Positions 2,800 to 39,674 of a stretch of DNA of 43,646 nt are shown in pieces. How positions within the stretch are numbered: position 1 is the first letter of the stretch; each line of letters opens with the position of its first letter. The notes beneath the pieces were generated by a model. That model did no database searches. It had not been told where the DNA came from and saw nothing but the letters and a program-made list of their open reading frames with translations. A program made the position numbers and the translations under genes. Source of the stretch: an uncultured Candidatus Saccharibacteria bacterium. Its GTDB lineage: Bacteria; Patescibacteriota; Minisyncoccia; Phycocordibacterales; UBA9973. The stretch lies in the NCBI GenBank assembly GCA_964354935.1, contig CAYHBT010000002.1, positions 19,864 to 63,509 of the forward strand, read 5' to 3'.

Positions 2800-3561
2800 G
2801 TGGAAAACCAAATTTTTCAAATAAAAACAACCGGTTTCGAGGGTCCGTTTGGACTTCTTTTAGAGTTGATAGAAAAGCGCAAATTTCATATAAATGATGT
2901 GTCGCTCGCGGCGGTGACGGAAGATTACCTCTCTCATATGAACAAATTGGGTGGCCTTTCTTCGGCGGAGATCGCCAGCTTTGTGTTTGTGGCTTCAACT
3001 CTCATTTTAATAAAGTCAAAATCTTTACTGCCTAATTTAAGTCTGACATCGGAGGAAGAAGGCGACATAAAAAATCTGGAAGAAAGACTTCGCCTGTATG
3101 AACTTTTTACAAAACTCGGAATAAATATAAAAAATAATTTTGGAGAAAAAATAATTTTCGCTCCACTAGAAAGAAAAAATGATGTACTAGTATTTTTGCC
3201 CGACGAGCGGATTACCAAAGAGAGCATGATGGGCTTTGCCAAAACCGTTCTTGGCGCTATGCCTAAAAAAGTATTCTTGCCCGAAGTCGAAGTGCGTAAA
3301 GTTATCAGCATAGAGGAAATGATTAGCAATCTGACAGAGAGAATAAAAACTTCGATCAATATGAGCTTCAAAGATTTTGCGGGTTTACCCGCCGGGGTGG
3401 GCAAAGCGCGGACTCGCGAAGAAAAAGTATTTGTGATTGTCGGATTCCTCGCTATGCTGGAGCTCGTGCGAAACGGAATCTTAGACGCGATTCAGGAAGG
3501 CGGGTTTGCGGACATTATTATTAATAAAGAAGTTCAAAAGATTGAAAACAATGGACAATAA
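2800..3561 (+). CDS. scpA: Segregation and condensation protein A (kleisin)
   Basis: 253 aa, GTG start. N-terminal FEGPFGLLLELIEKRKFHINDVSLAAVTEDYL is typical ScpA. Followed by overlapping scpB. Confidence 0.85.
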   Translation: MENQIFQIKTTGFEGPFGLLLELIEKRKFHINDVSLAAVTEDYLSHMNKLGGLSSAEIASFVFVASTLILIKSKSLLPNLSLTSEEEGDIKNLEERLRLYELFTKLGINIKNNFGEKIIFAPLERKNDVLVFLPDERITKESMMGFAKTVLGAMPKKVFLPEVEVRKVISIEEMISNLTERIKTSINMSFKDFAGLPAGVGKARTREEKVFVIVGFLAMLELVRNGILDAIQEGGFADIIINKEVQKIENNGQ

Positions 3562-4174
3562 TTCAGAATCAAAGATAGATCCCGTTAGAGATCGCGAGGG
3601 CTCGCAGCGACCCTCTATCTCTAACGGGATAGAAGCAATACTTTTTTGGAAAGGCGAACCGATGTCGAGAAAAAAACTCGGAGAAATTTTGAAAACGAGT
3701 GAGGAAGAAATAAATGCTGGTCTGGAAAAATTGAAAGAAAATTTAAACAGTAGGGGAATAGTATTGCAGGAAAACGGAGAAGAACTCGCGCTTGGCACAG
3801 CGCCTGAACTTTCGGAGCTGATTGAGAATCTGCAGAAAGAAGAATTAAATAAAGAACTTTCCAAGGCTAGCTTGGAAACATTATCTATCGTGCTTTATAA
3901 AAACGGAGCGAATAGAGCGGAAATAGACTATATCAGGGGAGTGAATTCCAGTTTCACTTTGCGTGCGCTTTCCATTCGCGGACTGGTGGAAAAAATTCTA
4001 GATCCCAAAGACAGCAGGCGGTATATTTACAAGCCAAGCTTCGAGCTCCTATCTTATATGGGCGTGAAATCAGTGGAAGAACTGCCAGACTTTGGTGAAG
4101 TGAGCGGGTCCATAAACATAGCGGCAAAGAATTTGGAAGAGGAGCAGAAAGAAGAAAATGCAAGCGCAAACTAA
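3551..4174 (+). CDS. scpB: Segregation and condensation protein B
   Basis: IEAILFWKGEPMSRKKLGEIL and a second winged-helix region (LETLSIVLYKNGANRAEIDYIRG). The ATG at 3551 overlaps the scpA stop (ATGGACAATAA); the track ORF start at 3506 is probably an upstream extension. Contains the 48-bp element at 3581-3628. Confidence 0.85.
   Translation: MDNNSESKIDPVRDREGSQRPSISNGIEAILFWKGEPMSRKKLGEILKTSEEEINAGLEKLKENLNSRGIVLQENGEELALGTAPELSELIENLQKEELNKELSKASLETLSIVLYKNGANRAEIDYIRGVNSSFTLRALSIRGLVEKILDPKDSRRYIYKPSFELLSYMGVKSVEELPDFGEVSGSINIAAKNLEEEQKEENASAN
3581..3628. repeat. 48-bp GC-rich palindromic element, family A copy 2 (in frame in scpB)
   Basis: CCCGTTAGAGATCGCGAGGGCTCGCAGCGACCCTCTATCTCTAACGGG. 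Encodes PVRDREGSQRPSISNG. 44/48 identical to copy 1 in gene sense. Confidence 0.85.
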
Positions 4175-5906
4175 ACAATGTCAAAACTGTAAAACAGACT
4201 TCATTATAGAGCCGGACGATTTTGGATTTTATGAAAAGATGAAGGTGCCAGTGCCTACATTTTGTCCGGAATGCCGACGGCAGAGACGAAACGCTTGGCG
4301 GAATACTTTTACTTTGTATTCCCGCAAATGCGATTCCTGCCAAAAATCCGTCATTTCACTTTACGCTCCTACCGCGCCAAAGGACGGGCAAGCTTCCGGT
4401 ATCACTATTTACTGCAACAAATGCTGGTGGAGCGATAAATGGGACGCGAAAAGTTTCGGAGCGGAGTATGATTTTTCTAAACCTTTTTTCACGCAGTTTC
4501 GCGAACTTATCGGCAAAGTGCCACACATTTCTATTGTGAACGACGATGGCATCGCTAGCCTAAATTGCGAATACACGCACGATACTTGGTTTTCAAAAAA
4601 TTGCTATATGGTGTTTTCTTCTTGGCGCATAGAAAATGTTTCGTACAGTTTTTTCATTCTTGCCGGCAAAGATATGATGGACTGTATGAATATCAGGTCC
4701 AAAAATGAATTTTTGTACGAATGTGTGCGTTGCGCTACCTCATATAAATTAACACATTCTCAACAATCAAAAGATTGCATAGAATCATCGTTTCTTGCTG
4801 ACTGCCTAAACTGCTCAAATTGTTTTATGTGTTGCGGGTTGCGCGGAAAAAAATACCATTTTAAAAATAAACAATATTCTAAAGAAGAATACGAAAAAAT
4901 CTTAAAAGATCATCGGTTGGATACTTTTTCTGGAGTTGAAAACACAATAAAAGAATTCGATTCTTTTATTTCTACACAAATTCAACGATATGCTCACAAT
5001 TTTCATAATGATTTGAATGTTATCGGTGAAGAAATTTCTAACTCGAAAAATATAAAAAATTGCTTTGGAATAAAAAAATCAGAAAACTGTCGATATTGCG
5101 ACTTCGGCTCGAACGACAAAGAATGCTATGACCTAGTGATGACAGGGGAATCTTCAGAGTGCTATGAGGTGGCTACTGCTGACCAATCCCAACTGAATCT
5201 TTTTGCTGTTTTTTCGGTGAAAAGCCAAGATGTGCGTTACACTCAGCATTGTCATAATTGCAGGCATTGTTTTGGTTGCGTCGGTCTGCGCGATGCAAGT
5301 TACTGTATTTTTAATAAACAATACACAAAAGAAGAATATGAAACGCTGGTGCCGAAAATAATTGAGCAGATGAACAAAATGCCTTTCGTTGATCGCATAG
5401 GAAATTCCTATGCGTATGGAGAATTTTATCCGATAGAACTTTCGCCGTTTGGCTACAATGAAACTCTTGCCATGGAAGATGTCGCGTTCTCAAAAGAAGA
5501 AGCGCAGAAGAGGGGATTTGGCTGGCAGGACAATATTCAACGCACGACGGGCAAGGAAACGCTCAAGCCTGAAAATATTCCGGAGTCCATAGACGAAATA
5601 GGGGATTCAATCTTAGATGAAGTGCTCGCCTGCATCGATTGCAAAAGAAATTACAAAATTGTTCCAAACGAACTTATTTTTTATCGGAAAATGAAAATCC
5701 CTATTCCGCGCCGATGTTTTTATTGCCGTCATGCGAACAGGCTGAAAAAGAGAAATCCGTTCAAACTTTGGCATAGGCAATGTATGTGTGAAAAAAAGCA
5801 CGCACATCACGAAGAACAATGCGACATAGAATTTGAAACAACTTACGCGCCGGAGCGGCCAGAAATTATTTATTGTGAGAAGTGTTATCAGCAGGAAGTG
5901 TACTAA
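4158..5906 (+). CDS. Cys-rich protein of unknown function with zinc-ribbon modules at both termini (paralog 1)
   Basis: 582-aa ORF. N- and C-terminal CxxC..FY.KM..P.P..C..CR modules and two internal halves, each ending C.NC..CF.C.GLR...NKQY[ST]KEEYE. Clear paralog of 34992-36728. Start overlaps the scpB end. Confidence 0.8.
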   Translation: MQAQTKQCQNCKTDFIIEPDDFGFYEKMKVPVPTFCPECRRQRRNAWRNTFTLYSRKCDSCQKSVISLYAPTAPKDGQASGITIYCNKCWWSDKWDAKSFGAEYDFSKPFFTQFRELIGKVPHISIVNDDGIASLNCEYTHDTWFSKNCYMVFSSWRIENVSYSFFILAGKDMMDCMNIRSKNEFLYECVRCATSYKLTHSQQSKDCIESSFLADCLNCSNCFMCCGLRGKKYHFKNKQYSKEEYEKILKDHRLDTFSGVENTIKEFDSFISTQIQRYAHNFHNDLNVIGEEISNSKNIKNCFGIKKSENCRYCDFGSNDKECYDLVMTGESSECYEVATADQSQLNLFAVFSVKSQDVRYTQHCHNCRHCFGCVGLRDASYCIFNKQYTKEEYETLVPKIIEQMNKMPFVDRIGNSYAYGEFYPIELSPFGYNETLAMEDVAFSKEEAQKRGFGWQDNIQRTTGKETLKPENIPESIDEIGDSILDEVLACIDCKRNYKIVPNELIFYRKMKIPIPRRCFYCRHANRLKKRNPFKLWHRQCMCEKKHAHHEEQCDIEFETTYAPERPEIIYCEKCYQQEVY

Positions 5907-13174: not shown

Positions 13175-14170
13175 ATGAGTACAAAAACAGCCGTCCAGCC
13201 GATAACCAAATATATCCTTCCCTTTCTAGATTACTGCGAAGTTGAGAAAGGGTTATCGAACAACACCCAACGCAACTACGAGCAATATCTCAAACTATTT
13301 GTGGGCTGGCTAAAAAAAACAAATAAAGAAAATCTTTTACCGCACGAGTTAACAGCCGAACATATTTGGGATTATCGTTTGTATTTGGCTCGAACTTATA
13401 TAACTCGTAATGGTGGATATTTGGGTAAGAAATCTCAAAATTATTACCTGATCGCTTTGCGAGCGCTTCTTGATTTTCTCGCCGACCGCGATATTCAAAT
13501 ACTTCCTTCTTCTAAAATAAAATTGGCTAAGCAAAAGACAGACGAGACTATCTCCTTTCTCGATACGCGTGATGTCGAAGCTATGCTAAAGATTCCCGAT
13601 ACAAAAACTCCAGCCGGTCTTCGGGACCGTTCCATAATGGAATTATTCTTTTCATCTGGTATGCGTATTTCGGAATTGGTAGCTCTGGATGCTGACCGCG
13701 TATCCTTCTTGAAGGACAAAAATTCGAAGCGCACCTTTGAACTTTCGATTGTTGGTAAAGGTCGCCATGTACGAACCATCTTCATTTCTCCTCGTGCCGC
13801 GCAGTGGCTACGCACTTATCTCGCATCTCGTAAAGATATGGAGAAGCCACTTTTTGTAAATATAAAATCTGGTGGAAATAAAAATATAAAAAAAGATGAT
13901 GATCATCGCCTCACTAATAGGTGGATACAAAAGATGATTTCAAAATGCGCATTGCTTGCGGGGATTTCCAAAAAAGTGACTCCCCACACGCTTCGCCATA
14001 CTTACGCCACCGATCTTTTGGGTAATGGAGCTGACTTACGAAGCGTACAAGAACTTTTGGGTCACAAGAATGTATCTACCACTCAAATATACACTCATGT
14101 GACCAATAAGGGCCTTAGAGACATCCACGAAAAATTTCATGGCGGAAAGGAAATTGATAATAATAAATAA
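13175..14170 (+). CDS. Tyrosine recombinase, XerC/XerD-like
   Basis: C-terminal HTLRHTYATDLL...LLGHKNVSTTQIYTHV (R-H-R-Y catalytic motifs) and an N-terminal SAM-like core-binding domain. Confidence 0.85.
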   Translation: MSTKTAVQPITKYILPFLDYCEVEKGLSNNTQRNYEQYLKLFVGWLKKTNKENLLPHELTAEHIWDYRLYLARTYITRNGGYLGKKSQNYYLIALRALLDFLADRDIQILPSSKIKLAKQKTDETISFLDTRDVEAMLKIPDTKTPAGLRDRSIMELFFSSGMRISELVALDADRVSFLKDKNSKRTFELSIVGKGRHVRTIFISPRAAQWLRTYLASRKDMEKPLFVNIKSGGNKNIKKDDDHRLTNRWIQKMISKCALLAGISKKVTPHTLRHTYATDLLGNGADLRSVQELLGHKNVSTTQIYTHVTNKGLRDIHEKFHGGKEIDNNK

Positions 14171-17664: not shown

Positions 17665-17704
17665 AGGTACATTGTATTTGAAAAACACTCAAAATGCAAA
17701 TACA

Positions 17705-17756
17705 CCTCACCCGCCTTCGGCACCCTCTCCTTGACAAGGAGAGGGTTAGGGAGAGG
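17705..17756. repeat. Nested-hairpin element, family B copy 1 (at the mrdA 3-prime end)
   Basis: CCTCACCCGCCTTCGGCACCCTCTCCTTGACAAGGAGAGGGTTAGGGAGAGG. Inner stem CCCTCTCCTT/AAGGAGAGGG, side hairpin GCC-TTCG-GGC. Confidence 0.8.
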
Positions 17757-19470
17757 TTCTGAAATATTCTGGAGTATAGATGATCATCCAATCTAAAAGC
17801 TGTCGCATTACTGTGGAAGCATTGACGCTGTTGGTCGTAGGTCCTGCTTCCATCATTATGGTAAAGGCATATTTAGGATTTTTATACGGGAAAAACCCTA
17901 TAACCCAAGAGTTCACTTTATTCTTACTGACTCCAATTTGGGCTGTACCAGTTTTTGCCGCGATTTCAACAAAGGGGACATTTAAAGATAAAGCTGTGCC
18001 ATAAGTGACCGCTTTGCGCATACCTTCGTGAATCGTATCAAAATATTCTTTTTTTATGTCTATGGCAGTCCTTTTTGCTTCCATTGTTTTATCGTCCAGA
18101 ATAAAATGCGGGGTTAAAATATTTCCATAATTAGCAATTGCTGAGACGGCACGCGTCATTTCCATCAATGTGACTTGAAATCCGTATTGCCCGATTGAGG
18201 TATTGTAAGTATCTCCGACGCGCCAAGGGTCTCCTTTAAAATTTTGTATTTTCCATTCAGGACTCGGAATGATTCCCTTTTTTTCATCTGGCAAGTCGAC
18301 TCCAGTGATTTCCCCAATTCCGAAAAGTCTAGCGTATTTTCCAAGATTTAAAATACCCAAACCTTTTTGATCTTCGAACCCCCCGCCAATTTCATAGAAA
18401 TAAATATCAGAAGAAACGGCCAATGCTTCTGTGATATCCGTCCAGCCGTTTACTCTCCAATCTTTAAAAACAGTTTTTTGGTCCGGAAAATAAGGATTTG
18501 GGATTGAAATAGAGCCTGTTGAAAGAATTTTTTTATATCGATCGATTACTCCTTCAGCCAAGGCTCCCAATCCAAAAAAAGGTTTTACAATTGAGCCCGG
18601 AGTATAAAGTCCGGAGACAGTCCTGTCTAAAAATGGTTTTTTCTTATCGTTCAAATAACGATTAATCTTAGTCGCGTCTTTACCTAAAGATAAAATTTCT
18701 GAATCGTATTCAGGAAAGCTTGTAGAGGCTATTATTTCTCCATTTTGTGTGTTCATAATAACGCCGGCTCCGCCTGTAAAATCATTACTTCCAGACAAAT
18801 TTTTAATTATAGTGAATAGCTCTTTTTGTATTCTAGAATCTATACTTATGACAAGATCGCTTCCTTGTTTGGGGCTGTTGATAATATTTTCTGAGTGGGT
18901 GATCCCCCTTGCGTCCACTTCTATTATTTTCGATCCATTTTCTCCTTTTAGTTTTTCGTTGTATTTTTTTTCAAGTCCATCTTTTCCAATAAATTCATTT
19001 TGCCAATAATTTCCCTGCGAATCCTTGGCGGGAGAGCTAACATAGCCGACTATATGTGAAAATCCAGGAGAAGCATAGGCGCGCGCATATACCAAAGACA
19101 GATTCTCTTCAATTTTTTTATTCCACGCTAATTCTTTTTTATTTCGATCATAAATGATACCTCTCTCGGTGAAAATATTTACTTTTTTCAAAATGTTGTT
19201 TTCGCTTCTCTTTCGATAAGTTTCCCCATTTTGTATTTGTAAATATGTAAGTCGAAGACCGAAGATGAGTATTACCAGTAAAAAAGAAATACCAAGAAAA
19301 CTGATATTTTTTTTAGAAATTGGTTTTTCTATTCTACCCTCGAATTGCTGGCGGTTGAAATTTTGTATATTTTTTGAATCAAGAAAAATTTCGTCTGGTT
19401 CGACAAAAGTGTTTTTAATCTGATTTTTTTTTAAAAATTTTCGAAAAGTCATTTGATTTAGTAAAATCAT
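17746..19470 (-). CDS. mrdA: Penicillin-binding protein 2 (class B transpeptidase)
   Basis: 574 aa with an N-terminal TM, PGSIVKP (SxxK) and KTGTA motifs. The last codons and the stop lie inside repeat 17705-17756. Confidence 0.85.
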   Translation of the reverse strand: MILLNQMTFRKFLKKNQIKNTFVEPDEIFLDSKNIQNFNRQQFEGRIEKPISKKNISFLGISFLLVILIFGLRLTYLQIQNGETYRKRSENNILKKVNIFTERGIIYDRNKKELAWNKKIEENLSLVYARAYASPGFSHIVGYVSSPAKDSQGNYWQNEFIGKDGLEKKYNEKLKGENGSKIIEVDARGITHSENIINSPKQGSDLVISIDSRIQKELFTIIKNLSGSNDFTGGAGVIMNTQNGEIIASTSFPEYDSEILSLGKDATKINRYLNDKKKPFLDRTVSGLYTPGSIVKPFFGLGALAEGVIDRYKKILSTGSISIPNPYFPDQKTVFKDWRVNGWTDITEALAVSSDIYFYEIGGGFEDQKGLGILNLGKYARLFGIGEITGVDLPDEKKGIIPSPEWKIQNFKGDPWRVGDTYNTSIGQYGFQVTLMEMTRAVSAIANYGNILTPHFILDDKTMEAKRTAIDIKKEYFDTIHEGMRKAVTYGTALSLNVPFVEIAAKTGTAQIGVSKNKVNSWVIGFFPYKNPKYAFTIMMEAGPTTNSVNASTVMRQLLDWMIIYTPEYFRTSP

Positions 19471-24465: not shown

Positions 24466-24504
24466 AAATATATAATATCATAAGTTATTTTATTTTTAAA
24501 AATT

Positions 24505-24559
24505 AAAAAAGCCAGTACTTGTGATTTGTATCACCTCCTTTCGGTTGTACTGGCTTTTT
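24505..24559 (-). terminator. Intrinsic terminator with an unusually large structured loop
   Basis: GCCAGTAC (24511-24518) pairs with GTACTGGC (24547-24554), flanked by A6 and T5 tracts. The loop contains a GTGAT-ACAA-ATCAC mini-hairpin and ATCACCTCCTTTC. Confidence 0.7.
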
Positions 24560-24564
24560 GGGGT

Positions 24565-24768
24565 TTAGTCCATGTGGGGACCAACCAATTCCTCCTCCTT
24601 GTCCACCACAAAACCACCCACCGTGATGGTGGTGGTTTCGGCCCGCTGCTGGGGAGGGGGCGGTGACGATATATCGCTCGTCACCATACTCTCGGCGCCC
24701 AAAGCGGCGAGAGCATGCATCGCCGCGTCCACTTTAGACGCGGCGATGATGACTTCAAGTTTTTTCAT
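24565..24768 (-). CDS. GC-rich 67-aa ORF with a PII(GlnB)-like N-terminal half; possibly a gene remnant or not coding
   Basis: MKKLEVIIAASKVDAAMHALAALGAESMVTSDI aligns by eye with PII MKKIxAII.P.KLDxVxxAL...G...MTVTEV. Strong G at codon position 1 and high GC3. Only 67 aa, no SD, and full of perfect hairpins. Confidence 0.4.
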   Translation of the reverse strand: MKKLEVIIAASKVDAAMHALAALGAESMVTSDISSPPPPQQRAETTTITVGGFVVDKEEELVGPHMD

Positions 24769-24859
24769 CGTATTAGTTTGGTTGAAGGGCTCCCTCGTTT
24801 GTTGATTTTAAAGAGCCCTGATTCAACAAGAGACTAGCATAAGTTCACCTTTCTTTCAA

Positions 24860-30891: not shown

Positions 30892-32778
30892 TTAATTTTT
30901 AGATAATTCAAGAGCTTTTTTGCCTATGTCTTTTCTGTATTGCATACCTTCAAAAGATATTTTTGAAATTGCTTCGTAGGCTTTATCGAGGGCTTCTTGC
31001 AGGCTTTTGCCCGTCGCGCTGACTCCCAGCACCCGCCCGCCGTTGGTGACTAGTTTTCCGTCTTTTTTGGTTGTGCCGGCGTGAAAGATAATTATATCTT
31101 TTTCTTTTTTCACTTCTTCAATCCCTGTGATAATTTTACCCTTCTCATATTCCCCCGGGTACCCGCCAGAAGCTACGGCGATGTTGCAGGCGGATGTATT
31201 TTCTTTCCATTTTATTTCTAAATCTTTTATTTTTCCATCAATACAAGCATCAAACATGTCCAAAATATCCGTCTCTAAAATTCTCATATATGTCTGTGTC
31301 TCCGGATCGCCGAAGCGCGCGTTGAATTCAAAAACCTTCGGGCCTTCGGCTGTGAGCATTATCCCCGGGTACAAAATTCCAACAAACGGTCTGCCTTCTT
31401 CTCTCATACCCGCCAATGTTGGCGCGATAATTTCTTTTTCAATTTGCGACATCAGCGCTTCGTTCATAAAAGGTAGCGACGCAATGACTCCCATTCCGCC
31501 TGTATTAGGTCCAGCATCGCCATCGAATATGCGTTTATGATCTTGCGAGCTTGGAAACATTTTAAAATCTTTTCCGTCGGAAATTGCGTGAATGGAGATT
31601 TCGGTGCCGGAAAGGTATTCCTCGATGACTACTTCGTTGCCGGAACTGCCAAAAATTTTATCCACCAAGATTTTTTTAAGTGCCTCGAGCGCTTCTTCTT
31701 TTGTTTGCGCTACTGCCACGCCTTTGCCGAGCGCGAGTCCGCTTGCTTTGATGACTACAGGCACCGAACCTTTTTCAACATATATTTTCGCTTTTTCAAA
31801 ATCGGAAAAAACCTCGTATTTAGCCGTTGGGATTTTGTGTCGTTTCATAAAATCTTTGGCGTAAGCTTTAGACCATTCGAGCTCGCTTGCCCCTTTGGTC
31901 GGACCCCAAACTCTTAATTTTTCTTTGTGAAATTCGTCCACTATGCCAAGCGCAAGAGGGTCGTCAGAGAGAACGAGAGTCAGGTCAATTTTTTCTTTTT
32001 TGGCAAATTCTAAAAGCTTGGCGGTTTCAGTTTCTTTTATATCTAAATTAGTTCCCAGCTCTGCTGTGCCGGCGTTGCCTCGCGCAAAAAATAATTCTCC
32101 CGCTCGAGGCGACTGCGCTATTTTCCAGCCGATTGCGTGTTCCCGTCCTCCTCCCGCGCCAATTATTAAAATTTTTTTATACCTCACCCCGCCTTCGGCA
32201 CCCCTCTCCTTGTTAAGGAGAGGGGTTGGGGGTGAGGTCAATTTTTCTAAAACTTCTACATATAATTCGTTTTCTTTTTTCTTTAGTCTGGCATACAGAG
32301 ACTCCACAGTATCGCCATCTTCCACTTTTTCAAAAGTTCTACCCAAGACTGGTCCAAAATCGAAATTCAAAGTCAAAAAATGAATTGAAGAACCGGCAAA
32401 AGTGGATTTTTGGTCTAGGAAATTTTTGATTGCCTTATCGCCATACATTCCTTTGTTCCATAGAGCTTTTGTATTATCAGGATTTAATATCTCTCCATTT
32501 ATTGTATCCGGAATCAAACCCGGGTGTAAATTAAAAATTTTGTTTTCATATTTTATTATCATCATTTCGGGAATTATCTTTTTCCAACCAGCTAGACATA
32601 TGTAGTCTGGCGACACTTTTTCCAATATCGGCATTGGTTCTTCCCTATCCGAAATGACTACAGAAATTTCCGCATTTATTTTCCCTGCATCAATTTCATC
32701 TCTAATTGCCTTGAGGTTTGTTTGAGCGCCTCCTTCGTGAACCAAAATCGCTAACTTTTTTTTATTCTTTTGGGACAT
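30892..32778 (-). CDS. purD: Fused GAR transformylase (PurN-like) / GAR synthetase (PurD)
   Basis: N-terminal ~190 aa has the formyltransferase NLHPGLIP and FDFGPVL motifs. The C-terminal part starts KILIIGAGGGREHAIGW (PurD ATP-grasp). The two halves are joined by repeat 32181-32238. Confidence 0.8.
   Translation of the reverse strand: MSQKNKKKLAILVHEGGAQTNLKAIRDEIDAGKINAEISVVISDREEPMPILEKVSPDYICLAGWKKIIPEMMIIKYENKIFNLHPGLIPDTINGEILNPDNTKALWNKGMYGDKAIKNFLDQKSTFAGSSIHFLTLNFDFGPVLGRTFEKVEDGDTVESLYARLKKKENELYVEVLEKLTSPPTPLLNKERGAEGGVRYKKILIIGAGGGREHAIGWKIAQSPRAGELFFARGNAGTAELGTNLDIKETETAKLLEFAKKEKIDLTLVLSDDPLALGIVDEFHKEKLRVWGPTKGASELEWSKAYAKDFMKRHKIPTAKYEVFSDFEKAKIYVEKGSVPVVIKASGLALGKGVAVAQTKEEALEALKKILVDKIFGSSGNEVVIEEYLSGTEISIHAISDGKDFKMFPSSQDHKRIFDGDAGPNTGGMGVIASLPFMNEALMSQIEKEIIAPTLAGMREEGRPFVGILYPGIMLTAEGPKVFEFNARFGDPETQTYMRILETDILDMFDACIDGKIKDLEIKWKENTSACNIAVASGGYPGEYEKGKIITGIEEVKKEKDIIIFHAGTTKKDGKLVTNGGRVLGVSATGKSLQEALDKAYEAISKISFEGMQYRKDIGKKALELSKN
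32181..32238. repeat. Nested-hairpin element, family B copy 2 (in frame, purN-purD junction)
   Basis: ACCTCACCCCGCCTTCGGCACCCCTCTCCTTGTTAAGGAGAGGGGTTGGGGGTGAGGT, with the same architecture and orientation as 17705-17756. Encodes TSPPTPLLNKERGAEGGVRY. Confidence 0.8.
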
Positions 32779-34970: not shown

Positions 34971-34992
34971 AATATCAGCTATAGCTGATATT
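34971..34992. repeat. Perfect 22-bp palindrome between the Cys-rich paralog 2 stop and the purQ start
   Basis: AATATCAGCTATAGCTGATATT is its own reverse complement. Its last base overlaps the paralog stop codon. Confidence 0.85.
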
Positions 34993-36728
34993 TAATATAT
35001 TTCTTGCTGATAACATTTTTCGCAGTATACCATATCTTGTCTTTCAGGCGCATAGGTTGTTTTGAATTCTACTTCGCATTTTTTCTCTCCGTGAAAATGA
35101 TTTTTTTTATCGCACATACACATCCTTTCCCAAAGTTTCAACGGATTTCTCAGATTAATACGCGCATAGTGCCGACAGTTTGGACACAGTCTAGGTAAAG
35201 GTAACTTCATTCTTTTGTAAAACCTGAATTCTTCTTGAATTATTTTAAAAGCTTCAGTACATTGGTGTTTACATGTGCCACCATGCCCGCAAGCAATAAT
35301 CTTACCTATTATTTCATCTCCAATATCTTTAATGTTGTCAGGTATATCTTTATTTTCTATGTCAATTTTGTAATTTCTTTCTTCTATCTCCTGCCAAGTA
35401 TATCCTTTTTGTAAAGCTTCTTCTTTGGTTAAAGGAAAATATTCTTGCGCGATTGTTTCGTTGTAAGCAAAAGGTGAAAGTTCTGATGGAAAAAATTCTC
35501 CGTACTTATAAATTCTGCTTTGTTTATCAATGAAAGGCATATCTTTCATATGCTTAATTATTTTAGGCAGAAGTTTCTCATATTCTTCTTTACTATATTG
35601 CTTGTTTAAAATGCAGTAACTTTTTTTACGAAGCCCTTCGCAGCCAAATACATTTTTACAATCATGGCATTCCTCGTTATAACGCGCATCTTGATTATTA
35701 AGATTTCTAACCCCGAATGCCACATTATTACTACCAAAACCATGACAATTTTCATATATTAGTTCTGCGTTAAAGCCCAGAAAAGATACATCATAACAAT
35801 CTTTAGATCCATGTCTGCAAAAAAACAAAAATTTTGAATCCTCGGCCTGTCTTGAACTAAAGGCGAAATTTGTATTTCTGGCTTCTGATAGATCGTCGCC
35901 GTCCGAATTTATTGATTTATAAACGCGAGCATAACGATGAGGTAAATCTAGTTCTAACTCTTTTAATTTTTTTAAAAATTCCAAATGTTTCTCGTGACTT
36001 CCTGTATTTTCTTTTATAAATTTATTATAGTTTTCTTTTGAATGTGGTTTATTAAAGATATGATATTGTTTGTTTACTAAACCTACACAACCAAAACAAT
36101 TTATACAGTTTCGACAATCGATCAAATAATAACTTTCAACGCAATCCTGGGAATGATGGCTAAAAAATAGTTTGTTTGTGGTTTTGCATTCAAAAAGCTC
36201 GTAGCCAAATTCAATCTTTTCACAAAAAGATATGTTCATCGAGTCTCGAGAGTCGAAAATTTGATTGCCAAAATAAACTCTCTCGTTATTATGTCCACCA
36301 AATAAAAGATAACATTCTTTAAAATCTATTCCGTAACTACAGTAATCGCTGTTTATAAAATTTGTTTGATATAAATTTGCTCTCGGCACCCTCGTTTGTA
36401 GCATTTTAAATTGTTCAAAAAAAGGCTTAGAAAAATCATAGTCTACACCGTAAGATATGGGGTCCCATTCATCAGAAAGCCAGCATTCTCGGCAATAAAC
36501 CGTGTATAATCTTTTATTATTATATACAGCAAGTACTGATTTTTTACACAGAGCACATTCGCGTTTGTAAAAGACGCGATTGTTGCGGAAAAGTAATCGT
36601 CTTTGGAATCTGCAATCAGGGCAAAATGTCGGAGGTGGCACTTGCATCTTTTCGTAAAAAGAAAAATCATCCGGCTCGATGACAAAATCCTTTTTACAAT
36701 TTTGGCAATTTTTTGTCTCTGATTTCAT
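34992..36728 (-). CDS. Cys-rich protein of unknown function with zinc-ribbon termini (paralog 2)
   Basis: 578 aa, collinear with 4158-5906. The termini are nearly identical at protein level (CQNCKKDFVIEPDDFSFYEKMQVPPPTFCPDCR ... TTYAPERQDMVYCEKCYQQEIY). Sits between purL and purQ. Confidence 0.8.
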   Translation of the reverse strand: MKSETKNCQNCKKDFVIEPDDFSFYEKMQVPPPTFCPDCRFQRRLLFRNNRVFYKRECALCKKSVLAVYNNKRLYTVYCRECWLSDEWDPISYGVDYDFSKPFFEQFKMLQTRVPRANLYQTNFINSDYCSYGIDFKECYLLFGGHNNERVYFGNQIFDSRDSMNISFCEKIEFGYELFECKTTNKLFFSHHSQDCVESYYLIDCRNCINCFGCVGLVNKQYHIFNKPHSKENYNKFIKENTGSHEKHLEFLKKLKELELDLPHRYARVYKSINSDGDDLSEARNTNFAFSSRQAEDSKFLFFCRHGSKDCYDVSFLGFNAELIYENCHGFGSNNVAFGVRNLNNQDARYNEECHDCKNVFGCEGLRKKSYCILNKQYSKEEYEKLLPKIIKHMKDMPFIDKQSRIYKYGEFFPSELSPFAYNETIAQEYFPLTKEEALQKGYTWQEIEERNYKIDIENKDIPDNIKDIGDEIIGKIIACGHGGTCKHQCTEAFKIIQEEFRFYKRMKLPLPRLCPNCRHYARINLRNPLKLWERMCMCDKKNHFHGEKKCEVEFKTTYAPERQDMVYCEKCYQQEIY

Positions 36729-36752: not shown

Positions 36753-39674
36753 TTAACTCATACTTTTTGAAAATTTGTGATAGATATCGTGCAATTTTTT
36801 GACAGTACTTTCTATTATTTTTTTACCACCATCTTCAACTATTACTTTTTCATCTTTCATTACTTTTCCTAACTTTGCATAGGAAACTCCTATGCATATT
36901 TTCTCAAAGACATTTATATTTTCCGGCGCGACAGAAACAAGAATTCTACCTTGGCTTTCGGAAAAGATCTTTGTCTCTACAGCCAGCGCCTTAGGCGCTG
37001 GCTGGCTTATATCTATTTTACAGCCGAGCATTCCGCCTAGAGATGCTTTCGCGAGAGCGATACCTAGACCGCCGGAAGTTACAGAAAGCGAAGAAGATAG
37101 TAATTCTTTTTGAATTAATTTTTCGAGTGCAAGATAAGTTTTCAGATTTTTTTCTAAATTTACTTTTGGAACACCATGTTCATCATTCGTTTCTCCCAGC
37201 AAATAAATTATATCATCTGCATTTTTAAATTCCGGCGAAACGGCTTTATTCAAATCAGGCATTACGCTGATTGCCGAGATAAGTAAAGTTGGCGGGATTG
37301 AAATTTCAACCGGATTGCCTTTTTCGTCATAGCCCTTAAAATCGTTGAACATACTGTCTTTTCCGGAGATAAACGGGGTTCCGTAGCCTACTGCATAGTC
37401 GTAGCAGGCTTTTACGGCTTCTACGAGTTGATATAAGCGTTTTGGGTCATTTGAGGAACACCAGCAGAAATTGTCTAAAATCGCTAAATGGGAAAGCGTA
37501 CCGCCCGCGGCGATTATATTTCTAATAGCGGTATCTAGCGCACAAGCCGCCATATGATATGTGCTAATGTCTCCGTAAGAAGGATAAAGCGCAGAAGATA
37601 AGACAACTGCTTTTTTTGAATTTAAAACCGGACGGAAAATTTGCGCATCGGTGTTTATGCGTCCAGCGCCGGAGAGAGGTTTCAAAACAGAAGACGCCTG
37701 CACTTCGTGATCGTATTGTTCGGAGACAAAAGCAAATCCAGAGATGTTTTTATTGGCGAGGAGGGTTTCTAAAGATTTTGTATACACTTTGCCTCTACCC
37801 AACCTCCTCCTACTGTAGGGGGAGGAGAAAGGAGGGGGTAAAATTTCCTCCGTTCTCAATTGTCTTTTCGGCAATCCATTGTGCAAAAATTCCATTTCCA
37901 TATCCATAATTTTTTTGCCACCGTATTCCAAAATAACTTTTCCGGAATTTGTGAATTCCCCGATTACCGTCGCTTCCACTCCGCGACTTTCCATAAGTTT
38001 TTGGAAAGTTTTCCATTTATTTTTTGGAACTGCCAAAGTCATTCGTTCCTGCGATTCGGAAATCCAAATTTCCCACGGCGCGAGACCGGGATATTTGAGC
38101 GGGACTTTGTCTAAAAAAACTTTCACTCCCCCACATTCTTTTGCCATTTCTGCGACCGACGAAGACAAACCACCAGCGCCATCGTCTGTGATGCTGTTGT
38201 ATAAATCTAATTCACGCGCTTCTTTAATTATTGCATCGCTTAATTTTTTCTGTGTTATCGGGTCTCCTATTTGGACTGCTGTGGCTGGAGAAGAGCTATC
38301 AAGTGTCACTGATGAAAAAGTCGCGCCGTGTATTCCATCTAGTCCGACTCTTCCTCCCACCATTACTACATAATCTCCCGCCCTAGCTTTCTTCTCGTGC
38401 ATTAATTTTCCCTTAACTTTGCGAGGTATTAATCCGACGGTTCCAGCAAAGACCAATGGCTTGCCACGATATCGTTCGTCGTATTTTATAAATCCGGAAA
38501 GTGTCGGAATTCCTGAACAGTTTCCACCAACATTGATGCCTTTAATGACTCCGTCCATAATTCTTTTCGAAGAGAGCATCTTCTCCGTTAAATTTTTATT
38601 TCTAAATAATTCTCTTTTATCATTTGGATAGCTAAGACAAAATCCGTATGCGTTCGCCACCGGTTTTGCGCCCAATCCAAAACCAATCGTGTCTCGATTC
38701 ACACCAACGATTCCAGTGATTGCTCCGCCAAAAGGGTCGAGCGCCGAAGGGCTGTTGTGCGTTTCGACTTTGTGTGTAATCAAATAATCTTCATCAAAAA
38801 TTATTCCACCGGCGTTGTCGGAAAAAACAGAAACACAGAAATCGCCGCCCCCGCCACGGCGGGCAAGTTTTTGTTTTCTTATTATATTTGTTGCCTCTTT
38901 TATATATGTTTTATACAAACCGTCCTTTATAACACCTGCCTGTTTCCCTGCGTCAGCAGGAGGCAGTTCAATCGGATTAGCAAAAATAGTGTGCTTGCAA
39001 TGTTCAGACCAAGTTTGCGCCAAAGACTCAAGTTCAATATCGGTGGGGTTTCTTTTCAACTTGGCAAAATACGCTTTTATGGCAAGCATAGAAGCCAAAT
39101 CAAGAGCGAGCGGGCCTCTCCTTTTGCCATCTTCACCCAGTATGCCTTCTGTGCCTATTTTAGTAAGTTCTTCATCTGAAACTTCAAGCGAAATATTTAT
39201 CACAGGAATTTTTTTCTTTAAAATTACTTTTGGAATGATATTTATAAATTCGAATTTTCCGTTTTTTGTTTTAACTATATTCGCTCTTTCAATAAGAGGA
39301 TTGTATAAGGTCAGAGCAAGCTCTTGCGTTTCTTTTAGTCCACCCGAAACAAAAAAAATCTTTGAAGTATATACTTCAAAATGGTCGTTCTTTTTAAGAT
39401 GTAGTAAATCTGTCGCTATCTCTTTGACCGTGTGTCCGACATTATCGGTGACTCCGGGCAAGAATCCTATTTCTATGGCATGAGAAAACCCGCCGACTGG
39501 GCGGGCAAGCTTCCCCAATTCCGGGTACTCGTTGATGTAATAATTTTCCAAAATGGGATTAGTGAGCGCTTCTGCTAATTTTACGAGCTCTTTTTCCGAG
39601 AATTTAGAATCAATGAGATAGGAATCTGCCTTTGCGCTATCATTTTTCGGTATTACAAATATCCGTGAAATCAT
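36753..39674 (-). CDS. purL: FGAM synthase II with extra N-terminal PurS-like domain
   Basis: 973 aa with WSEHCKHTIF and duplicated PurM-like halves. The first ~160 aa resemble the N-domain of large PurL / PurS. Carries at least four GC-rich hairpin inserts. Confidence 0.85.
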   Translation of the reverse strand: MISRIFVIPKNDSAKADSYLIDSKFSEKELVKLAEALTNPILENYYINEYPELGKLARPVGGFSHAIEIGFLPGVTDNVGHTVKEIATDLLHLKKNDHFEVYTSKIFFVSGGLKETQELALTLYNPLIERANIVKTKNGKFEFINIIPKVILKKKIPVINISLEVSDEELTKIGTEGILGEDGKRRGPLALDLASMLAIKAYFAKLKRNPTDIELESLAQTWSEHCKHTIFANPIELPPADAGKQAGVIKDGLYKTYIKEATNIIRKQKLARRGGGGDFCVSVFSDNAGGIIFDEDYLITHKVETHNSPSALDPFGGAITGIVGVNRDTIGFGLGAKPVANAYGFCLSYPNDKRELFRNKNLTEKMLSSKRIMDGVIKGINVGGNCSGIPTLSGFIKYDERYRGKPLVFAGTVGLIPRKVKGKLMHEKKARAGDYVVMVGGRVGLDGIHGATFSSVTLDSSSPATAVQIGDPITQKKLSDAIIKEARELDLYNSITDDGAGGLSSSVAEMAKECGGVKVFLDKVPLKYPGLAPWEIWISESQERMTLAVPKNKWKTFQKLMESRGVEATVIGEFTNSGKVILEYGGKKIMDMEMEFLHNGLPKRQLRTEEILPPPFSSPYSRRRLGRGKVYTKSLETLLANKNISGFAFVSEQYDHEVQASSVLKPLSGAGRINTDAQIFRPVLNSKKAVVLSSALYPSYGDISTYHMAACALDTAIRNIIAAGGTLSHLAILDNFCWCSSNDPKRLYQLVEAVKACYDYAVGYGTPFISGKDSMFNDFKGYDEKGNPVEISIPPTLLISAISVMPDLNKAVSPEFKNADDIIYLLGETNDEHGVPKVNLEKNLKTYLALEKLIQKELLSSSLSVTSGGLGIALAKASLGGMLGCKIDISQPAPKALAVETKIFSESQGRILVSVAPENINVFEKICIGVSYAKLGKVMKDEKVIVEDGGKKIIESTVKKLHDIYHKFSKSMS
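37796..37840. repeat. GC-rich nested hairpin in frame in purL (family C)
   Basis: TACCCAACCTCCTCCTACTGTAGGGGGAGGAGAAAGGAGGGGGTA. Stem CTCCTCCTAC/GTAGG(GG)GAGGAG. Encodes LPPPFSSPYSRRRLG. Confidence 0.65.

What the first reader, a model, noticed from the sequence alone, without database searches (positions are those of the whole stretch)
32181..32238. purN and purD joined into one ORF by a nested-hairpin repeat element
The 628-aa ORF has a PurN-like formyltransferase half and a PurD half beginning KILIIGAGGGREHA. They are bridged by TSPPTPLLNKERGAEGGVRY, which is encoded entirely by a 58-bp GC-rich element: outer stem ACCTCACCC/GGGTGAGGT, side hairpin GCC-TTCG-GGC, inner stem CCCCTCTCCTT/AAGGAGAGGGG. 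A near-identical element (17705-17756) sits at the 3-prime end of mrdA, where the aligned position carries the TAA stop. This suggests an intergenic or terminator-type element that became an in-frame linker. N-to-C purN-purD order is not the familiar eukaryotic GARS-AIRS-GART order. A GTG inside the element (complement of 32185-32187) could also allow independent PurD initiation.
Basis: partly seen in the sequence, partly recalled or inferred. Interest (0 to 1): 0.65.

Follow-up and report, generated by a model that had tools for sequence, protein, structure and literature searches.

The report
Mobile hairpin repeat links purN–purD
A 58-base GC-rich hairpin, one copy of a repeat family found in many bacterial phyla, sits in frame between two purine-synthesis genes of a small freshwater bacterium, so the two genes are read as one two-enzyme protein.

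Summary
Window 32181-32238 is a 58-nt nested hairpin (about -44 kcal/mol). It encodes residues 181-200 of a 628-aa PurN-PurD ORF. A second copy (17704-17757) supplies the last three codons and the stop of mrdA. Independent assemblies give the identical sequence, so this is not an assembly error.

PurN-PurD fusions are common in Nomurabacteria relatives. A deep clade has short linkers with no repeat. The window's nearest PurD relatives have separate purN and purD genes that overlap by 8-16 nt. Apart from one protein that looks like a read-through spacer, every fused form among these mostly unfused relatives carries a copy of this repeat at the same left boundary. Repeat-mediated fusion is the best reading. 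Insertion into an older fusion is not excluded.

The repeat is not a terminator. Its unit is the hairpin CCCCTCTCC-loop-GGAGAGGGG plus the arm GGGGTGAGGT. This unit occurs in contigs with GC 0.31-0.71, in cyanobacterial plasmids and in viral contigs, often in frame inside genes. The same ends also bracket small DUF559 (Vsr-like nuclease) genes, twice in frame inside MetH and LeuRS. The 58-nt element therefore looks like a gene-less derivative of an undescribed nuclease-carrying mobile unit.

The parts
32181..32238 (-). 58-nt closed copy of the hairpin repeat. It encodes the linker T181-Y200 (TSPPTPLLNKERGAEGGVRY) of the PurN-PurD ORF.
   Evidence: In the AlphaFold2 model the linker residues 184-198 have pLDDT below 50.
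32181..32190 (.). Outer arm ACCTCACCCC. It pairs with 32229-32238 (GGGGTGAGGT). These arms are the terminal inverted repeat of the family.
   Evidence: Fold. The same arms bound the DUF559 units in L105, L172 and L202.
32191..32199 (.). Side hairpin GCC-TTC-GGC. This module varies in sequence between copies but is always a hairpin.
   Evidence: Compensatory changes across copies are shown.
32200..32226 (.). Inner 12-bp stem-loop (A)CCCCTCTCCTT-GTT-AAGGAGAGGGG(T), the conserved core of the family.
32239..32778 (-). PurN (GAR formyltransferase) half, residues 1-180.
   Evidence: Pfam Formyl_trans_N. The N-x-H and D motifs align to PDB PurN 4ds3. The model is confident here.
30892..32180 (-). PurD (GAR synthetase) half, residues 201-628, plus the stop codon.
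   Evidence: Pfam GARS_N, GARS_A and GARS_C. It is 77-81% identical to stand-alone PurD proteins of relatives.
17704..17757 (-). Second closed copy (54 nt). It supplies the last three codons (TSP) and the TAA stop of the PBP2-like gene 17746-19470.
37798..37838 (-). Probable degenerate relative of the repeat, in frame inside PurL (...EILPPPFSSPYSRRRLGRGKVY...).
   Evidence: This rests on resemblance of architecture only.

Best explanation
The 58-bp sequence is one copy of a dispersed GC-rich palindromic repeat. In its closed form, the terminal inverted arms ACCTCACCCC and GGGGTGAGGT enclose the hairpin CCCCTCTCC-loop-GGAGAGGGG and an optional second hairpin.

The proposed history is as follows. 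In the lineage leading to this Nomurabacteria-like genome, a copy landed in the short overlap where purN ends and purD starts. It replaced the stop/start segment. The copy is stop-free in the purN frame, and the net length change is 1 mod 3. The two out-of-frame genes therefore became one ORF.

The ribosome now makes a single GAR transformylase-GAR synthetase protein of about 68 kDa (estimated from its 628 residues). The repeat is translated as a 20-residue proline/glycine-rich disordered tether. The repeat itself has no dedicated function at this site. It survives because a linker is a place where extra residues are tolerated, and because an insertion at a translationally coupled junction is viable only if it reads through.

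The family appears to be the gene-less (solo-end or MITE-like) form of a mobile unit of roughly 420-570 bp. In that unit the same two hairpin ends bracket a DUF559 (Vsr-like PD-(D/E)xK) nuclease gene.

What is shown: the fusion, the repeat identity, the family distribution, the in-frame copies and the DUF559 association. What is inferred: the direction of the event (insertion caused the fusion), single-product translation and the role of the nuclease in mobility.
For: 1. The ORF is real and intact. Independent assemblies are identical. Both halves match their families, and the catalytic PurN motifs are present. In the AF2 model both domains are confident and only residues 184-198 fall below pLDDT 50.

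2. Junction states in relatives were read from DNA.
- Separate, overlapping genes: L009 ...CTATGTCAAAAAAATTAA, L012, L199 and L201.
- Separate genes with an 8-nt gap: L001.
- Fused, no repeat: L004.
- Fused with the same 58-nt form at the same place: L002, L003 and L006.
- Fused with other forms: L014 (47 nt, no side hairpin) and L015 (70 nt, a different side hairpin).
- The left boundary is always ...TT(A/G)|ACCTC.

3. Tree of the PurD domain, 110 sequences.
- The fused/unfused state changes 10-14 times across 100 bootstrap replicates.
- Fusions without a repeat (9 F0 plus 2 with a small hairpin) sit mostly in one deep clade.
- For 8 of 11 repeat-bearing fusions the nearest neighbours are unfused PurD proteins.
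- Three such unfused neighbours that were looked up have purN directly upstream: a separate gene with an 8-nt gap (L001) or genes overlapping by 8-16 nt (L199, L201).

4. The two linker types (PPxPLLxKER and PQPSPxRRG) read the inner hairpin in different frames. They cannot be interconverted by in-frame indels. There were therefore at least two separate insertions or conversions at this one site.

5. The family is real and widespread.
- 29 stretches in viral contigs.
- Cyanobacterial and Thiothrix plasmids, including an in-frame copy in Stanieria cas10d and a copy supplying a C-terminus plus stop in Thiothrix.
My own estimate of the chance expectation for that pattern is only a few hits.

6. 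In-frame copies occur in other genes of relatives: PurL and PurD in L009 and Dus in L013. In low-GC contigs, 32% of copies lie inside long ORFs.

7. The DUF559 link.
- Units bounded by the same ends occur in L105, L172, L169, L150 and L202.
- The window element's first 22 nt match the left end of L105 and of L202 at 21/22 each.
- 5 of 6 DUF559-like ORFs in 713 kb lie within 90 nt of a hairpin core (binomial p = 0.0015).
- 23 of 120 DUF559 homologues carry hairpin-derived peptides at an end.
Against: - Fusions without the repeat exist, and they are the deepest branches of the tree. Parsimony puts 'fused' at the root. The window's fusion could therefore be an old one whose linker was later colonised.
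- 'EKLT' precedes the linker both in repeat-free fusions and in repeat-bearing ones.
- Precise removal of the 58 nt does not restore an ATG, GTG or TTG start for purD. The event was not a clean insertion, or it was followed by further change.
- The tree is neighbour-joining on one domain, and recombination is evident (P0006 is a chimera of P0008-like and P0007-like halves).
- No empty-versus-filled polymorphism was seen in related strains, and no target-site duplication was found.
- No DUF559 gene and no transposase lies in the window or in the roughly 200 kb of Nomurabacteria loci fetched. The link between this copy and a nuclease-carrying parent rests on shared ends only.
- There are no protein or ribosome data for a single product.
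Confidence: 0.55

Rival explanations
1. The PurN-PurD fusion is older than the repeat. The ancestor already had a short linker of the EKLTG-SQKK type, and the repeat later inserted into that tolerant linker. Under this reading the separate genes in close relatives are secondary fissions.
For: - Repeat-free fusions occur in P0013, P0014, P0018, P0020, P0021, P0023, P0042 and P0043, and Fitch parsimony gives a fused root.
- Against L004, the window swaps 10 nt for 58 nt (+48, in frame), and both share ...TT(A/G)AC.
- The repeat does insert into loops of intact proteins elsewhere: PurD and PurL in L009, Dus in L013, and MetH in L105.
Against: - Among the mostly unfused relatives no repeat-free short-linker fusion was found. 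P0009, the one repeat-free fusion there, has a 16-residue linker that looks like a read-through spacer. Every other fused form there carries the repeat.
- This reading needs many independent fissions, each of which must rebuild an 8-16-nt overlap with a new start codon.
Confidence: 0.3
2. The hairpin acts at the RNA level. It might serve as a processing site, a translational pause or barrier, or a platform for internal initiation at the GTG inside it. PurN and PurD would then still be made as two proteins, or in a regulated ratio.
For: - The structure is very stable on the mRNA strand (-44.2 kcal/mol).
- A GTG preceded by GAAGGCGG lies near its 3' end.
- The side hairpin keeps its pairing through sequence change across copies.
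Against: - Copies inside genes are kept stop-free and in frame. That would not be needed if the RNA were cut or the segment skipped.
- The same family sits in unrelated genes, in intergenic DNA and in many phyla, so it has no purine-specific role.
- There is no Rfam match, and the terminator scan does not call it.
- The candidate start and its SD-like sequence are buried in the outer stem.
Confidence: 0.1
3. The fusion is an assembly or sequencing artefact in a GC-rich hairpin that hides a stop codon or frameshift.
For: GC-rich hairpins are error-prone, and only contigs, not raw reads, could be inspected.
Against: - The sequence is identical in an ENA SPAdes contig and in Logan contigs from three DNA runs in two studies, at depths of 23, 15 and 4.
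- Orthologous in-frame copies occur in other genomes assembled by other groups: L002, L003 and L006, the last a GenBank MAG.
Confidence: 0.02

Closest known systems
Rickettsia palindromic elements (RPEs)
   Same: Both are palindromic repeats inserted in frame into unrelated housekeeping genes and translated as extra peptide at places the fold tolerates (reviewed in PMC10969869).
   Different: RPEs are about 100-150 bp, restricted to Rickettsia and unrelated in sequence. No associated nuclease gene or gene-joining role was mentioned in the review passages I read. The element here is 47-70 bp, is found across phyla and here joins two genes.
REP elements and REPtrons/TIRtrons (RAYT or TIRYT tyrosine transposase flanked by REPs or TIRs)
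   Same: Both are short GC-rich hairpins present in many copies, some inside genes. Both have a small enzyme gene bracketed by the repeats. Some TIRYT TIRs share a GGGGWSAS motif, which GGGGTGAG fits (PMC3733652).
   Different: There is no GTAG or CGTC tag here. The bracketed gene is a DUF559 PD-(D/E)xK nuclease, not an HUH Y1 transposase. No Y1_Tnp gene was found next to any copy in 713 kb; the one Y1_Tnp found (L083) is not flanked by the repeat.
Bacterial MITEs (Correia/NEMIS, ERIC, Coxiella QMITE, cyanobacterial MITEs)
   Same: Both have terminal inverted repeats, lack their own coding capacity, occur in intergenic and intragenic copies, and can make in-frame fusions with host ORFs (PMC10969869, PMC5896051).
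   Different: This element is much shorter. No target-site duplication was detected, and no DDE-type parent IS was found. The candidate parent is a nuclease gene with hairpin ends.
Small dispersed repeats (SDR) of Nostoc and other cyanobacteria (Elhai et al. 2008; from my own knowledge, paper not read here)
   Same: Both are very small hairpin-forming repeats that appear mobile, occur nested and inside conserved sequence, and have no known mobilising enzyme.
   Different: SDRs are 21-27 nt and were described within cyanobacteria. Sequence relatedness to this family was not tested.
Vsr-like / EDxHD homing endonucleases (I-Bth0305I; 'fractured genes')
   Same: DUF559 is classed with Vsr and the EDxHD homing endonucleases (PMC3424549, PMC9403480, PMC3239194, PMC2677866). 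These are selfish nuclease genes that sit inside host genes.
   Different: The known ones ride in group I introns or between split-intein halves. The units here have hairpin inverted-repeat ends and no intron or intein, and in MetH and LeuRS they are simply read through in frame.
Eukaryotic trifunctional GARS-AIRS-GART (human GART)
   Same: One polypeptide carries both the GAR synthetase and the GAR transformylase activities.
   Different: The order there is GARS-AIRS-GART. Here it is GART-GARS with no AIRS domain, and the fusion arose independently in Patescibacteria.

Membership tests
REP/RAYT (REPtron) elements | Conserved GTAG (or CGTC) tetranucleotide at one end of the palindrome | tested here: not met
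   The ends are ACCTCACCCC and GGGGTGAGGT, with no GTAG or CGTC tag. The definition is from PMC3733652.
REP/RAYT (REPtron) elements | Associated HUH Y1 tyrosine transposase (RAYT) flanked by the repeats | tested here: inconclusive
   There is no Y1_Tnp in the window. A phmmer search with a recalled RAYT sequence over all ORFs of the loci fetched by then gave one weak Y1_Tnp (L083), and it is not flanked by the repeat. The whole source genome could not be searched.
MITE | Terminal inverted repeats | tested here: met
   A 9-10-nt inverted pair ACCTCACCC(C)/(G)GGGTGAGGT is present in closed copies.
MITE | Target-site duplication flanking the element | tested here: not met
   Flanks of more than 20 closed copies show no shared or duplicated bases.
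MITE | Derived by internal deletion from an autonomous element with the same ends | tested here: inconclusive
   Units with the same ends carrying DUF559 exist in L105, L172, L169 and L202. None was found in Nomurabacteria DNA, and DUF559 is not a known transposase.
Rickettsia palindromic elements | In-frame palindromic insert in protein-coding genes that is translated | tested here: met
   This feature holds for the purN-purD linker, for PurL, PurD and Dus of relatives, and for MetH and LeuRS. Translation is inferred from intact frames only.
Rickettsia palindromic elements | Sequence family of about 100-150 bp specific to Rickettsia | tested here: not met
   The element is 47-70 nt and occurs in Patescibacteria, Cyanobacteria, Thiothrix and many metagenomes.
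Intrinsic (rho-independent) terminator | GC-rich stem-loop followed directly by a U run on the transcribed strand | tested here: not met
   The scan does not call it. On the mRNA strand the stem is followed by AUAAAAAAAUUUU. The gene's own terminator is at 30881-30846.
Known RNA families (Rfam 15) | Match to a curated covariance model | tested here: not met
   There are no hits at gathering score. At permissive E-values only chance miRNA-hairpin matches appear.
PurN (GAR formyltransferase) | Formyl_trans_N fold with the N-x-H and D catalytic residues | tested here: met
   Pfam E = 2.5e-19. NLHPGLIP and HFLTLNFDFGP align to NIHPSLLP and HLVTEGMDEGP of 4ds3. The protein lacks about 22 residues present in longer relatives.
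PurD (GAR synthetase) | GARS_N, GARS_A (ATP-grasp) and GARS_C domains | tested here: met
   E-values are 9.6e-30, 5.8e-80 and 1.2e-35.
Homing-endonuclease gene element (Vsr-like/EDxHD) | Nuclease ORF inserted in a host gene and shielded by an intron or intein | tested here: not met
   The DUF559 units in MetH and LeuRS are flanked only by hairpin peptides. Pfam finds no intein domain in those ORFs. Intron structure was not searched.

The most novel reading that the evidence does not exclude
The hairpin repeats may be the two ends of a previously undescribed kind of very small mobile element. It would consist of a DUF559 (Vsr-like PD-(D/E)xK) nuclease gene bracketed by ACCTCACCCC-hairpin and hairpin-GGGGTGAGGT, a REPtron-like layout with a different enzyme.

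On this reading the element moves between phyla and can live read-through and in frame inside essential genes such as MetH and LeuRS. It leaves solo-end derivatives of 35-70 nt. In small AT-rich Patescibacteria genomes these derivatives repeatedly remodel proteins and have joined purN to purD more than once.
Probability: 0.35. Interest if true: 0.8.

Novelty: new variant of a known kind. Interest (0 to 1): 0.6.

Why it matters
This case shows a selfish repeat doing constructive work. It turns two translationally coupled genes into one bifunctional enzyme, apparently more than once at the same junction.

It also explains the odd GC-rich, proline/glycine-rich peptides (TSPPxPLLxKERG, LTPNPSPKERG, PLSLxRRGxGGEV) that occur in predicted proteins from Patescibacteria (formerly the candidate phyla radiation, CPR), cyanobacteria and Bacteroidota. 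Annotators can flag them as repeat-derived.

If the DUF559 link holds, it assigns a role to a large domain of unknown function. It would also define a new minimal mobile element that crosses phylum boundaries and tolerates, or even exploits, translation within host genes.

Tried and rejected
- **Rfam.** The whole window at gathering score, and the element at E up to 10, gave nothing meaningful. The 300-nt purN-purD spacers of L010 and L011 also gave no Rfam hit.
- **Terminator.** The scan does not call the element.
- **RNA-level excision.** I considered whether the element could be spliced out. Removing the 58 nt would leave purN ending EKLIKKF* and purD with no ATG, GTG or TTG start. Intragenic copies are kept in frame and stop-free, which argues against splicing. 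The one metatranscriptome contig found (X6) covers only 32306-32456 and does not span the element.
- **Presence/absence polymorphism.** No joints at any repeat copy were seen in related-strain contigs X3, X4, X5 and X7.
- **Target-site duplication.** None was found.
- **RAYT or Y1 transposase next to copies.** None was found.
- **Outer-arm pattern in viral contigs.** ACCTCACCC-N20-50-GGGTGAGGT returned mostly unrelated palindromes. Only 3 of 27 hits were family members.
- **Genome-collection scan with the protein.** It returned only 7 loci, so no broad genome-level census was possible.
- **Literature.** Searches for the motif, for palindromic elements in Patescibacteria, for purN-purD fusions and for DUF559 mobility found no description.
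- **Covariation of the outer and inner stems.** It could not be judged, because the search patterns fixed those bases. Only the side hairpin is informative.
Full report
**Observation**

The window has 39.8% GC. At 32181-32238 it carries a 58-nt GC-rich sequence. This folds into a 10-bp outer stem (ACCTCACCCC/GGGGTGAGGT) enclosing a 3-bp side hairpin (GCC-TTC-GGC) and a 12-bp inner stem-loop ((A)CCCCTCTCCTT-GTT-AAGGAGAGGGG(T)). Both strands fold at about -44 kcal/mol, with z-scores of -6 and -8.

The sequence lies inside the 628-aa ORF 30892-32778 on the minus strand. That ORF has a Formyl_trans_N match at residues 52-177 and GARS_N/A/C matches at residues 202-621. The element encodes residues 181-200, TSPPTPLLNKERGAEGGVRY.

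A second copy at 17704-17757 is identical at 50 of 58 aligned positions. It provides the last three codons and the TAA stop of a PBP2-like gene. The inner-stem pattern occurs twice in the window against 0.03 expected.

**Is the fused ORF real?**

The exact 628-aa product is called on five contigs. Three were shown: an ENA SPAdes contig and Logan contigs of two runs. Contigs from three DNA runs in two studies (freshwater 2020, lake water 2024) cover 31900-32500 without a single difference.

The PurN half keeps the N-x-H and Asp catalytic motifs when aligned to solved PurN structures. AlphaFold2 on a 29-sequence alignment gives mean pLDDT 85.7, with both domains confident. Only residues 184-198, the repeat-encoded stretch, fall below 50. 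An artefact is very unlikely. Only contigs, not raw reads, were available.

**Relatives**

A protein search returned 25 PurN-PurD fusions (53-77% identical) and many stand-alone PurD proteins (up to 81% identical over that half). Where named, both kinds come from Candidatus Nomurabacteria, Parcubacteria or Paceibacterota MAGs. The linkers fall into four groups:
- The same peptide as the window: TSPPAPLL(V/D/A)KERVAEG.VRY.
- A second repeat peptide read in another frame: TSPQPSP(D/E)RRGG..EV.
- A small unrelated hairpin peptide: C.TP.V.
- Short linkers with no repeat, such as EKLTG-SQKK, in P0013, P0014, P0018, P0020, P0021, P0023, P0042 and P0043.

DNA from relatives shows every state of the junction:
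- Overlapping separate genes in L009, L012, L199 and L201; for example L201 has EKLCQTN* overlapping MPDKLKILIIG by 16 nt.
- Separate genes with an 8-nt gap in L001.
- Separate genes with a spacer of about 300 nt in L010 and L011.
- Fused without a repeat in L004.
- Fused with the 58-nt form in L002, L003 and L006.
- Fused with a 47-nt form lacking the side hairpin in L014.
- Fused with a 70-nt form carrying a different side hairpin in L015.

The left boundary is always ...TT(A/G)|ACCTC.

A neighbour-joining tree of the PurD domain (110 sequences, 100 bootstraps) needs 10-14 changes between fused and unfused states. Repeat-free fusions form a deep clade. In the large, mostly unfused clade every fused form except P0009 carries the repeat; P0009 looks like a read-through spacer. 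For 8 of 11 repeat-bearing fusions the nearest neighbours are unfused. The window's own nearest neighbours are P0004 (fused, other repeat form) and then P0028, P0030 and P0029 (unfused).

Against L201, the window replaces 13 nt with 62 nt. The net gain of 49 nt is 1 mod 3, which is what joining the two frames requires.

The two linker types read the hairpin in different frames, so in-frame indels cannot convert one into the other. The site was therefore hit, or converted, at least twice.

I conclude that repeat insertion into the overlapping junction is the most likely origin of this fusion. Colonisation of an older short linker remains a live alternative, because the deepest branches are fused.

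**What the repeat is**

It matches no Rfam family, and the terminator scan does not call it.

The inner stem-loop alone occurs in 29 stretches of IMG/VR contigs, mostly between genes. In one contig with Mu-like phage genes (L020) copies also lie in frame inside the terminase gene and another structural gene.

BLAST against plasmids finds the 5' part (CCTCACCCCCAACCCCTCTCC...GGAGAGGGG) mainly in cyanobacteria (Gloeothece, Stanieria, Leptolyngbya, Pseudanabaena, Nostoc and others), and also in Thiothrix and Cupriavidus. One copy is in frame inside Stanieria cas10d. In Thiothrix a copy supplies a gene's C-terminus and stop.

A metagenome scan used the pattern CCTCTCC-N3-7-GGAGAGGG-N1-20-GGTGAGGT. 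I estimate it should give only a few chance hits.

The basic unit is the hairpin plus one arm (the open form). 35 of 150 hits also carry the opposite arm (the closed form, as in the window). Some closed copies carry a side hairpin whose sequence differs between copies while its pairing is kept: GCC/GGC, GGCT/AGCC, GTCG/CGAC, GCCC/GGGC and GTCTGC/GCAGAC.

In low-GC contigs 32% of copies lie inside long ORFs, against 60% for random positions. In mid-GC contigs the figure is 8%. In Nomurabacteria relatives, copies sit in frame in PurL and PurD (L009) and in Dus (L013). No target-site duplication is visible.

**A candidate parent element**

In L169 a small ORF bracketed by copies is DUF559/REase_MTES_1575. 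Searching all fetched ORFs with it found DUF559 ORFs in L105, L172, L150 and L090 (phmmer) and in L160 (jackhmmer). Five of these six ORFs, L169 included, lie within 90 nt of a hairpin core, although only 20% of the 713 kb lies within 600 nt of a core (p = 0.0015).

The units are ACCTCACCCC-NNN-hairpin ... DUF559 ... hairpin-NNN-GGGGTGAGGT and span about 420-570 bp (L105 3951-4385, L172, L169, L202 1520-1992). The first 22 nt of the window element match the L105 and L202 left ends at 21/22 each.

In L105 the whole unit is stop-free and in frame inside a B12-dependent methionine synthase, where it splits the activation domain. In L090 it is in frame inside a leucyl-tRNA synthetase-like ORF.

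Of 120 DUF559 homologues from Bacteroidota, cyanobacteria and metagenomes, at least 23 carry hairpin-derived peptides at an end: DLTPNPSPKERG, PLSLGEGAGG and PSPSGEGPGVR.

Each end hairpin is a palindrome, so the two ends are also direct repeats of each other. Recombination between them would delete the gene and leave exactly the closed form. I therefore read the 58-nt element as a gene-less derivative of such a unit.

This is inference. No DUF559 gene was found in the window or in the roughly 200 kb of Nomurabacteria DNA fetched. DUF559 is not a demonstrated transposase. An alternative mobiliser is a TIRYT-type tyrosine transposase, whose TIRs share a GGGGWSAS motif that GGGGTGAG fits (PMC3733652). 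It could not be excluded, although no such gene sat beside any copy.

**How it works at this locus**

The repeat is translated as a flexible tether between two independently folding enzymes that catalyse steps 2 (PurD) and 3 (PurN) of purine synthesis. This assignment of steps is established pathway knowledge.

At a translationally coupled junction, a stable hairpin would probably block re-initiation of purD. A copy that reads through in frame would then be the viable outcome, which would explain why junction copies are found as fusions. This step is inferred.

In copy 1 only 2 of the 6 reading frames are open, and the frame in use is one of them. In mrdA the frame that is entered meets a stop after three codons, so there the repeat simply replaces the C-terminal end.

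**Comparison with known systems**

The behaviour is that of Rickettsia palindromic elements, intragenic REPs and MITEs: in-frame and tolerated. The element fails the defining tests of each of these. It has no GTAG or CGTC tag and no RAYT, it has no target-site duplication, and it is neither Rickettsia-specific nor 100-150 bp long.

The DUF559 units resemble REPtrons in layout and Vsr-like homing-endonuclease genes in enzyme class, but they have neither an HUH transposase nor an intron or intein. The PurN-PurD order differs from the eukaryotic GARS-AIRS-GART protein.

I found no paper describing this repeat, its link to DUF559, or bacterial PurN-PurD fusions in the searchable library. The fused proteins themselves are already in public databases under ordinary PurD names.

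**Verdict**

For the locus itself this is a new variant of a known kind: a gene fusion made or occupied by an in-frame palindromic repeat. A more novel reading is open concerning the DUF559-bracketing element family.

Noticed in passing
window 2468-2518 and 3579-3629: A second, unrelated 51-nt palindromic repeat (TIR CCCGTTAGA...TCTAACGGG, 92% complementary pair). It lies in frame in two genes with the same peptide: the M1 aminopeptidase ORF 87-2777 (...PNPVRSREGSQRPSTSNGT...) and the ScpB ORF 3506-4174 (...DPVRDREGSQRPSISNGI...). A 96-nt element with the same ends interrupts a DUF559 ORF in L150 (2867-2962).
   Followed up: partly
window 37798-37838 (inside PurL 36753-39674, minus strand): A GC-rich stretch, CCTCCTCC...GGAGGAGG-TTG-GGTAGAGG, encoding ...PPPFSSPYSRRRLGRG.... 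It looks like a decayed in-frame copy of a related hairpin repeat.
   Followed up: partly
L013 11006-11179, L014 11699-11800, L001 5021-5104, L015 11636-11719: Relatives carry a sister repeat (CCCCTCCTT-GTG-AAGGAGGGG + GGGGGTGGT) in frame in a C-terminal loop of PurD (GIPPLLVKEGVGGGD). Decayed versions (NPIFIEEGGGGGD) occur in other genomes. The window's PurD has no insert there.
   Followed up: partly
L105 3951-4385; L090 1-355; L202 1520-1992; L172 2581-3001; L169 14066-14640; L150 2720-3299: DUF559 (Vsr-like nuclease) genes are bracketed by the same hairpin ends. In L105 the unit is in frame inside MetH, and in L090 it is in frame inside a LeuRS-like ORF.
   Followed up: partly
window 32239-32778 (PurN half): The PurN domain lacks about 22 residues (one helix plus one strand after ...VISD) that are present in P0004, P0005 and most other relatives. 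The short form is shared with P0002, P0003, P0007, P0008 and P0010. Catalytic motifs are kept and the model is confident.
   Followed up: partly
window 4158-5906 (+) and 34992-36728 (-): Two paralogous ORFs of about 580 aa (70-73% nucleotide identity over several hundred bases, in inverted orientation) have no Pfam match. One sits inside the purine operon between purL and purQ. An unannotated ORF of 553-580 aa occupies the same operon position in L014 and L015.
   Followed up: no
L001 3975-3997; proteins P0015 and P0019: A different small hairpin (TGTTCAACACCGAGTGTTTAACA) forms the 3' end of the separate purN gene in L001 (...LCSTPSV*). Similar peptides (TCPTPSVE, CQTPGVG) form the linker in the fused P0015 and P0019. 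The junction therefore attracts more than one kind of palindrome.
   Followed up: partly
L010 3130-3420; L011 5850-6140: In two relatives purN and purD are separated by a spacer of about 300 nt. It has a terminator-like hairpin and a conserved stretch before a promoter-like TATAGT. It has no Rfam match.
   Followed up: partly
protein P0006 versus P0007 and P0008: P0006 has the N-terminal half and linker of P0008 and the C-terminal half of P0007. It is either a recombinant or a chimeric assembly. I left it out of the bootstrap tree.
   Followed up: partly
window 24466-24859: An unusually GC-rich intergenic region with several strong hairpins lies between an unannotated 234-aa ORF and purH. Three perfect stems fall within 24606-24748, and the region folds at -141 kcal/mol over 394 nt.
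   Followed up: no
about 20 metagenome loci, e.g. L099, L100, L101, L111, L127, L170 and L178: A larger conserved composite recurs in mid-GC contigs. It consists of a first hairpin AAGAGGGGCG...GCCCCTCTT, then about 15 nt, then CCCCTCTCCTT...AAGGAGAGGGGGA-NNN-GGGGGTGAGGT, often followed by TAATAAACAATC. This may be a distinct subfamily or a structured RNA.
   Followed up: no
window 13175-14170: A XerC/D-like tyrosine recombinase (Phage_integrase plus SAM-like N domain). It is the only recombinase-type gene in the window, and there is no evidence that it relates to the repeats.
   Followed up: no
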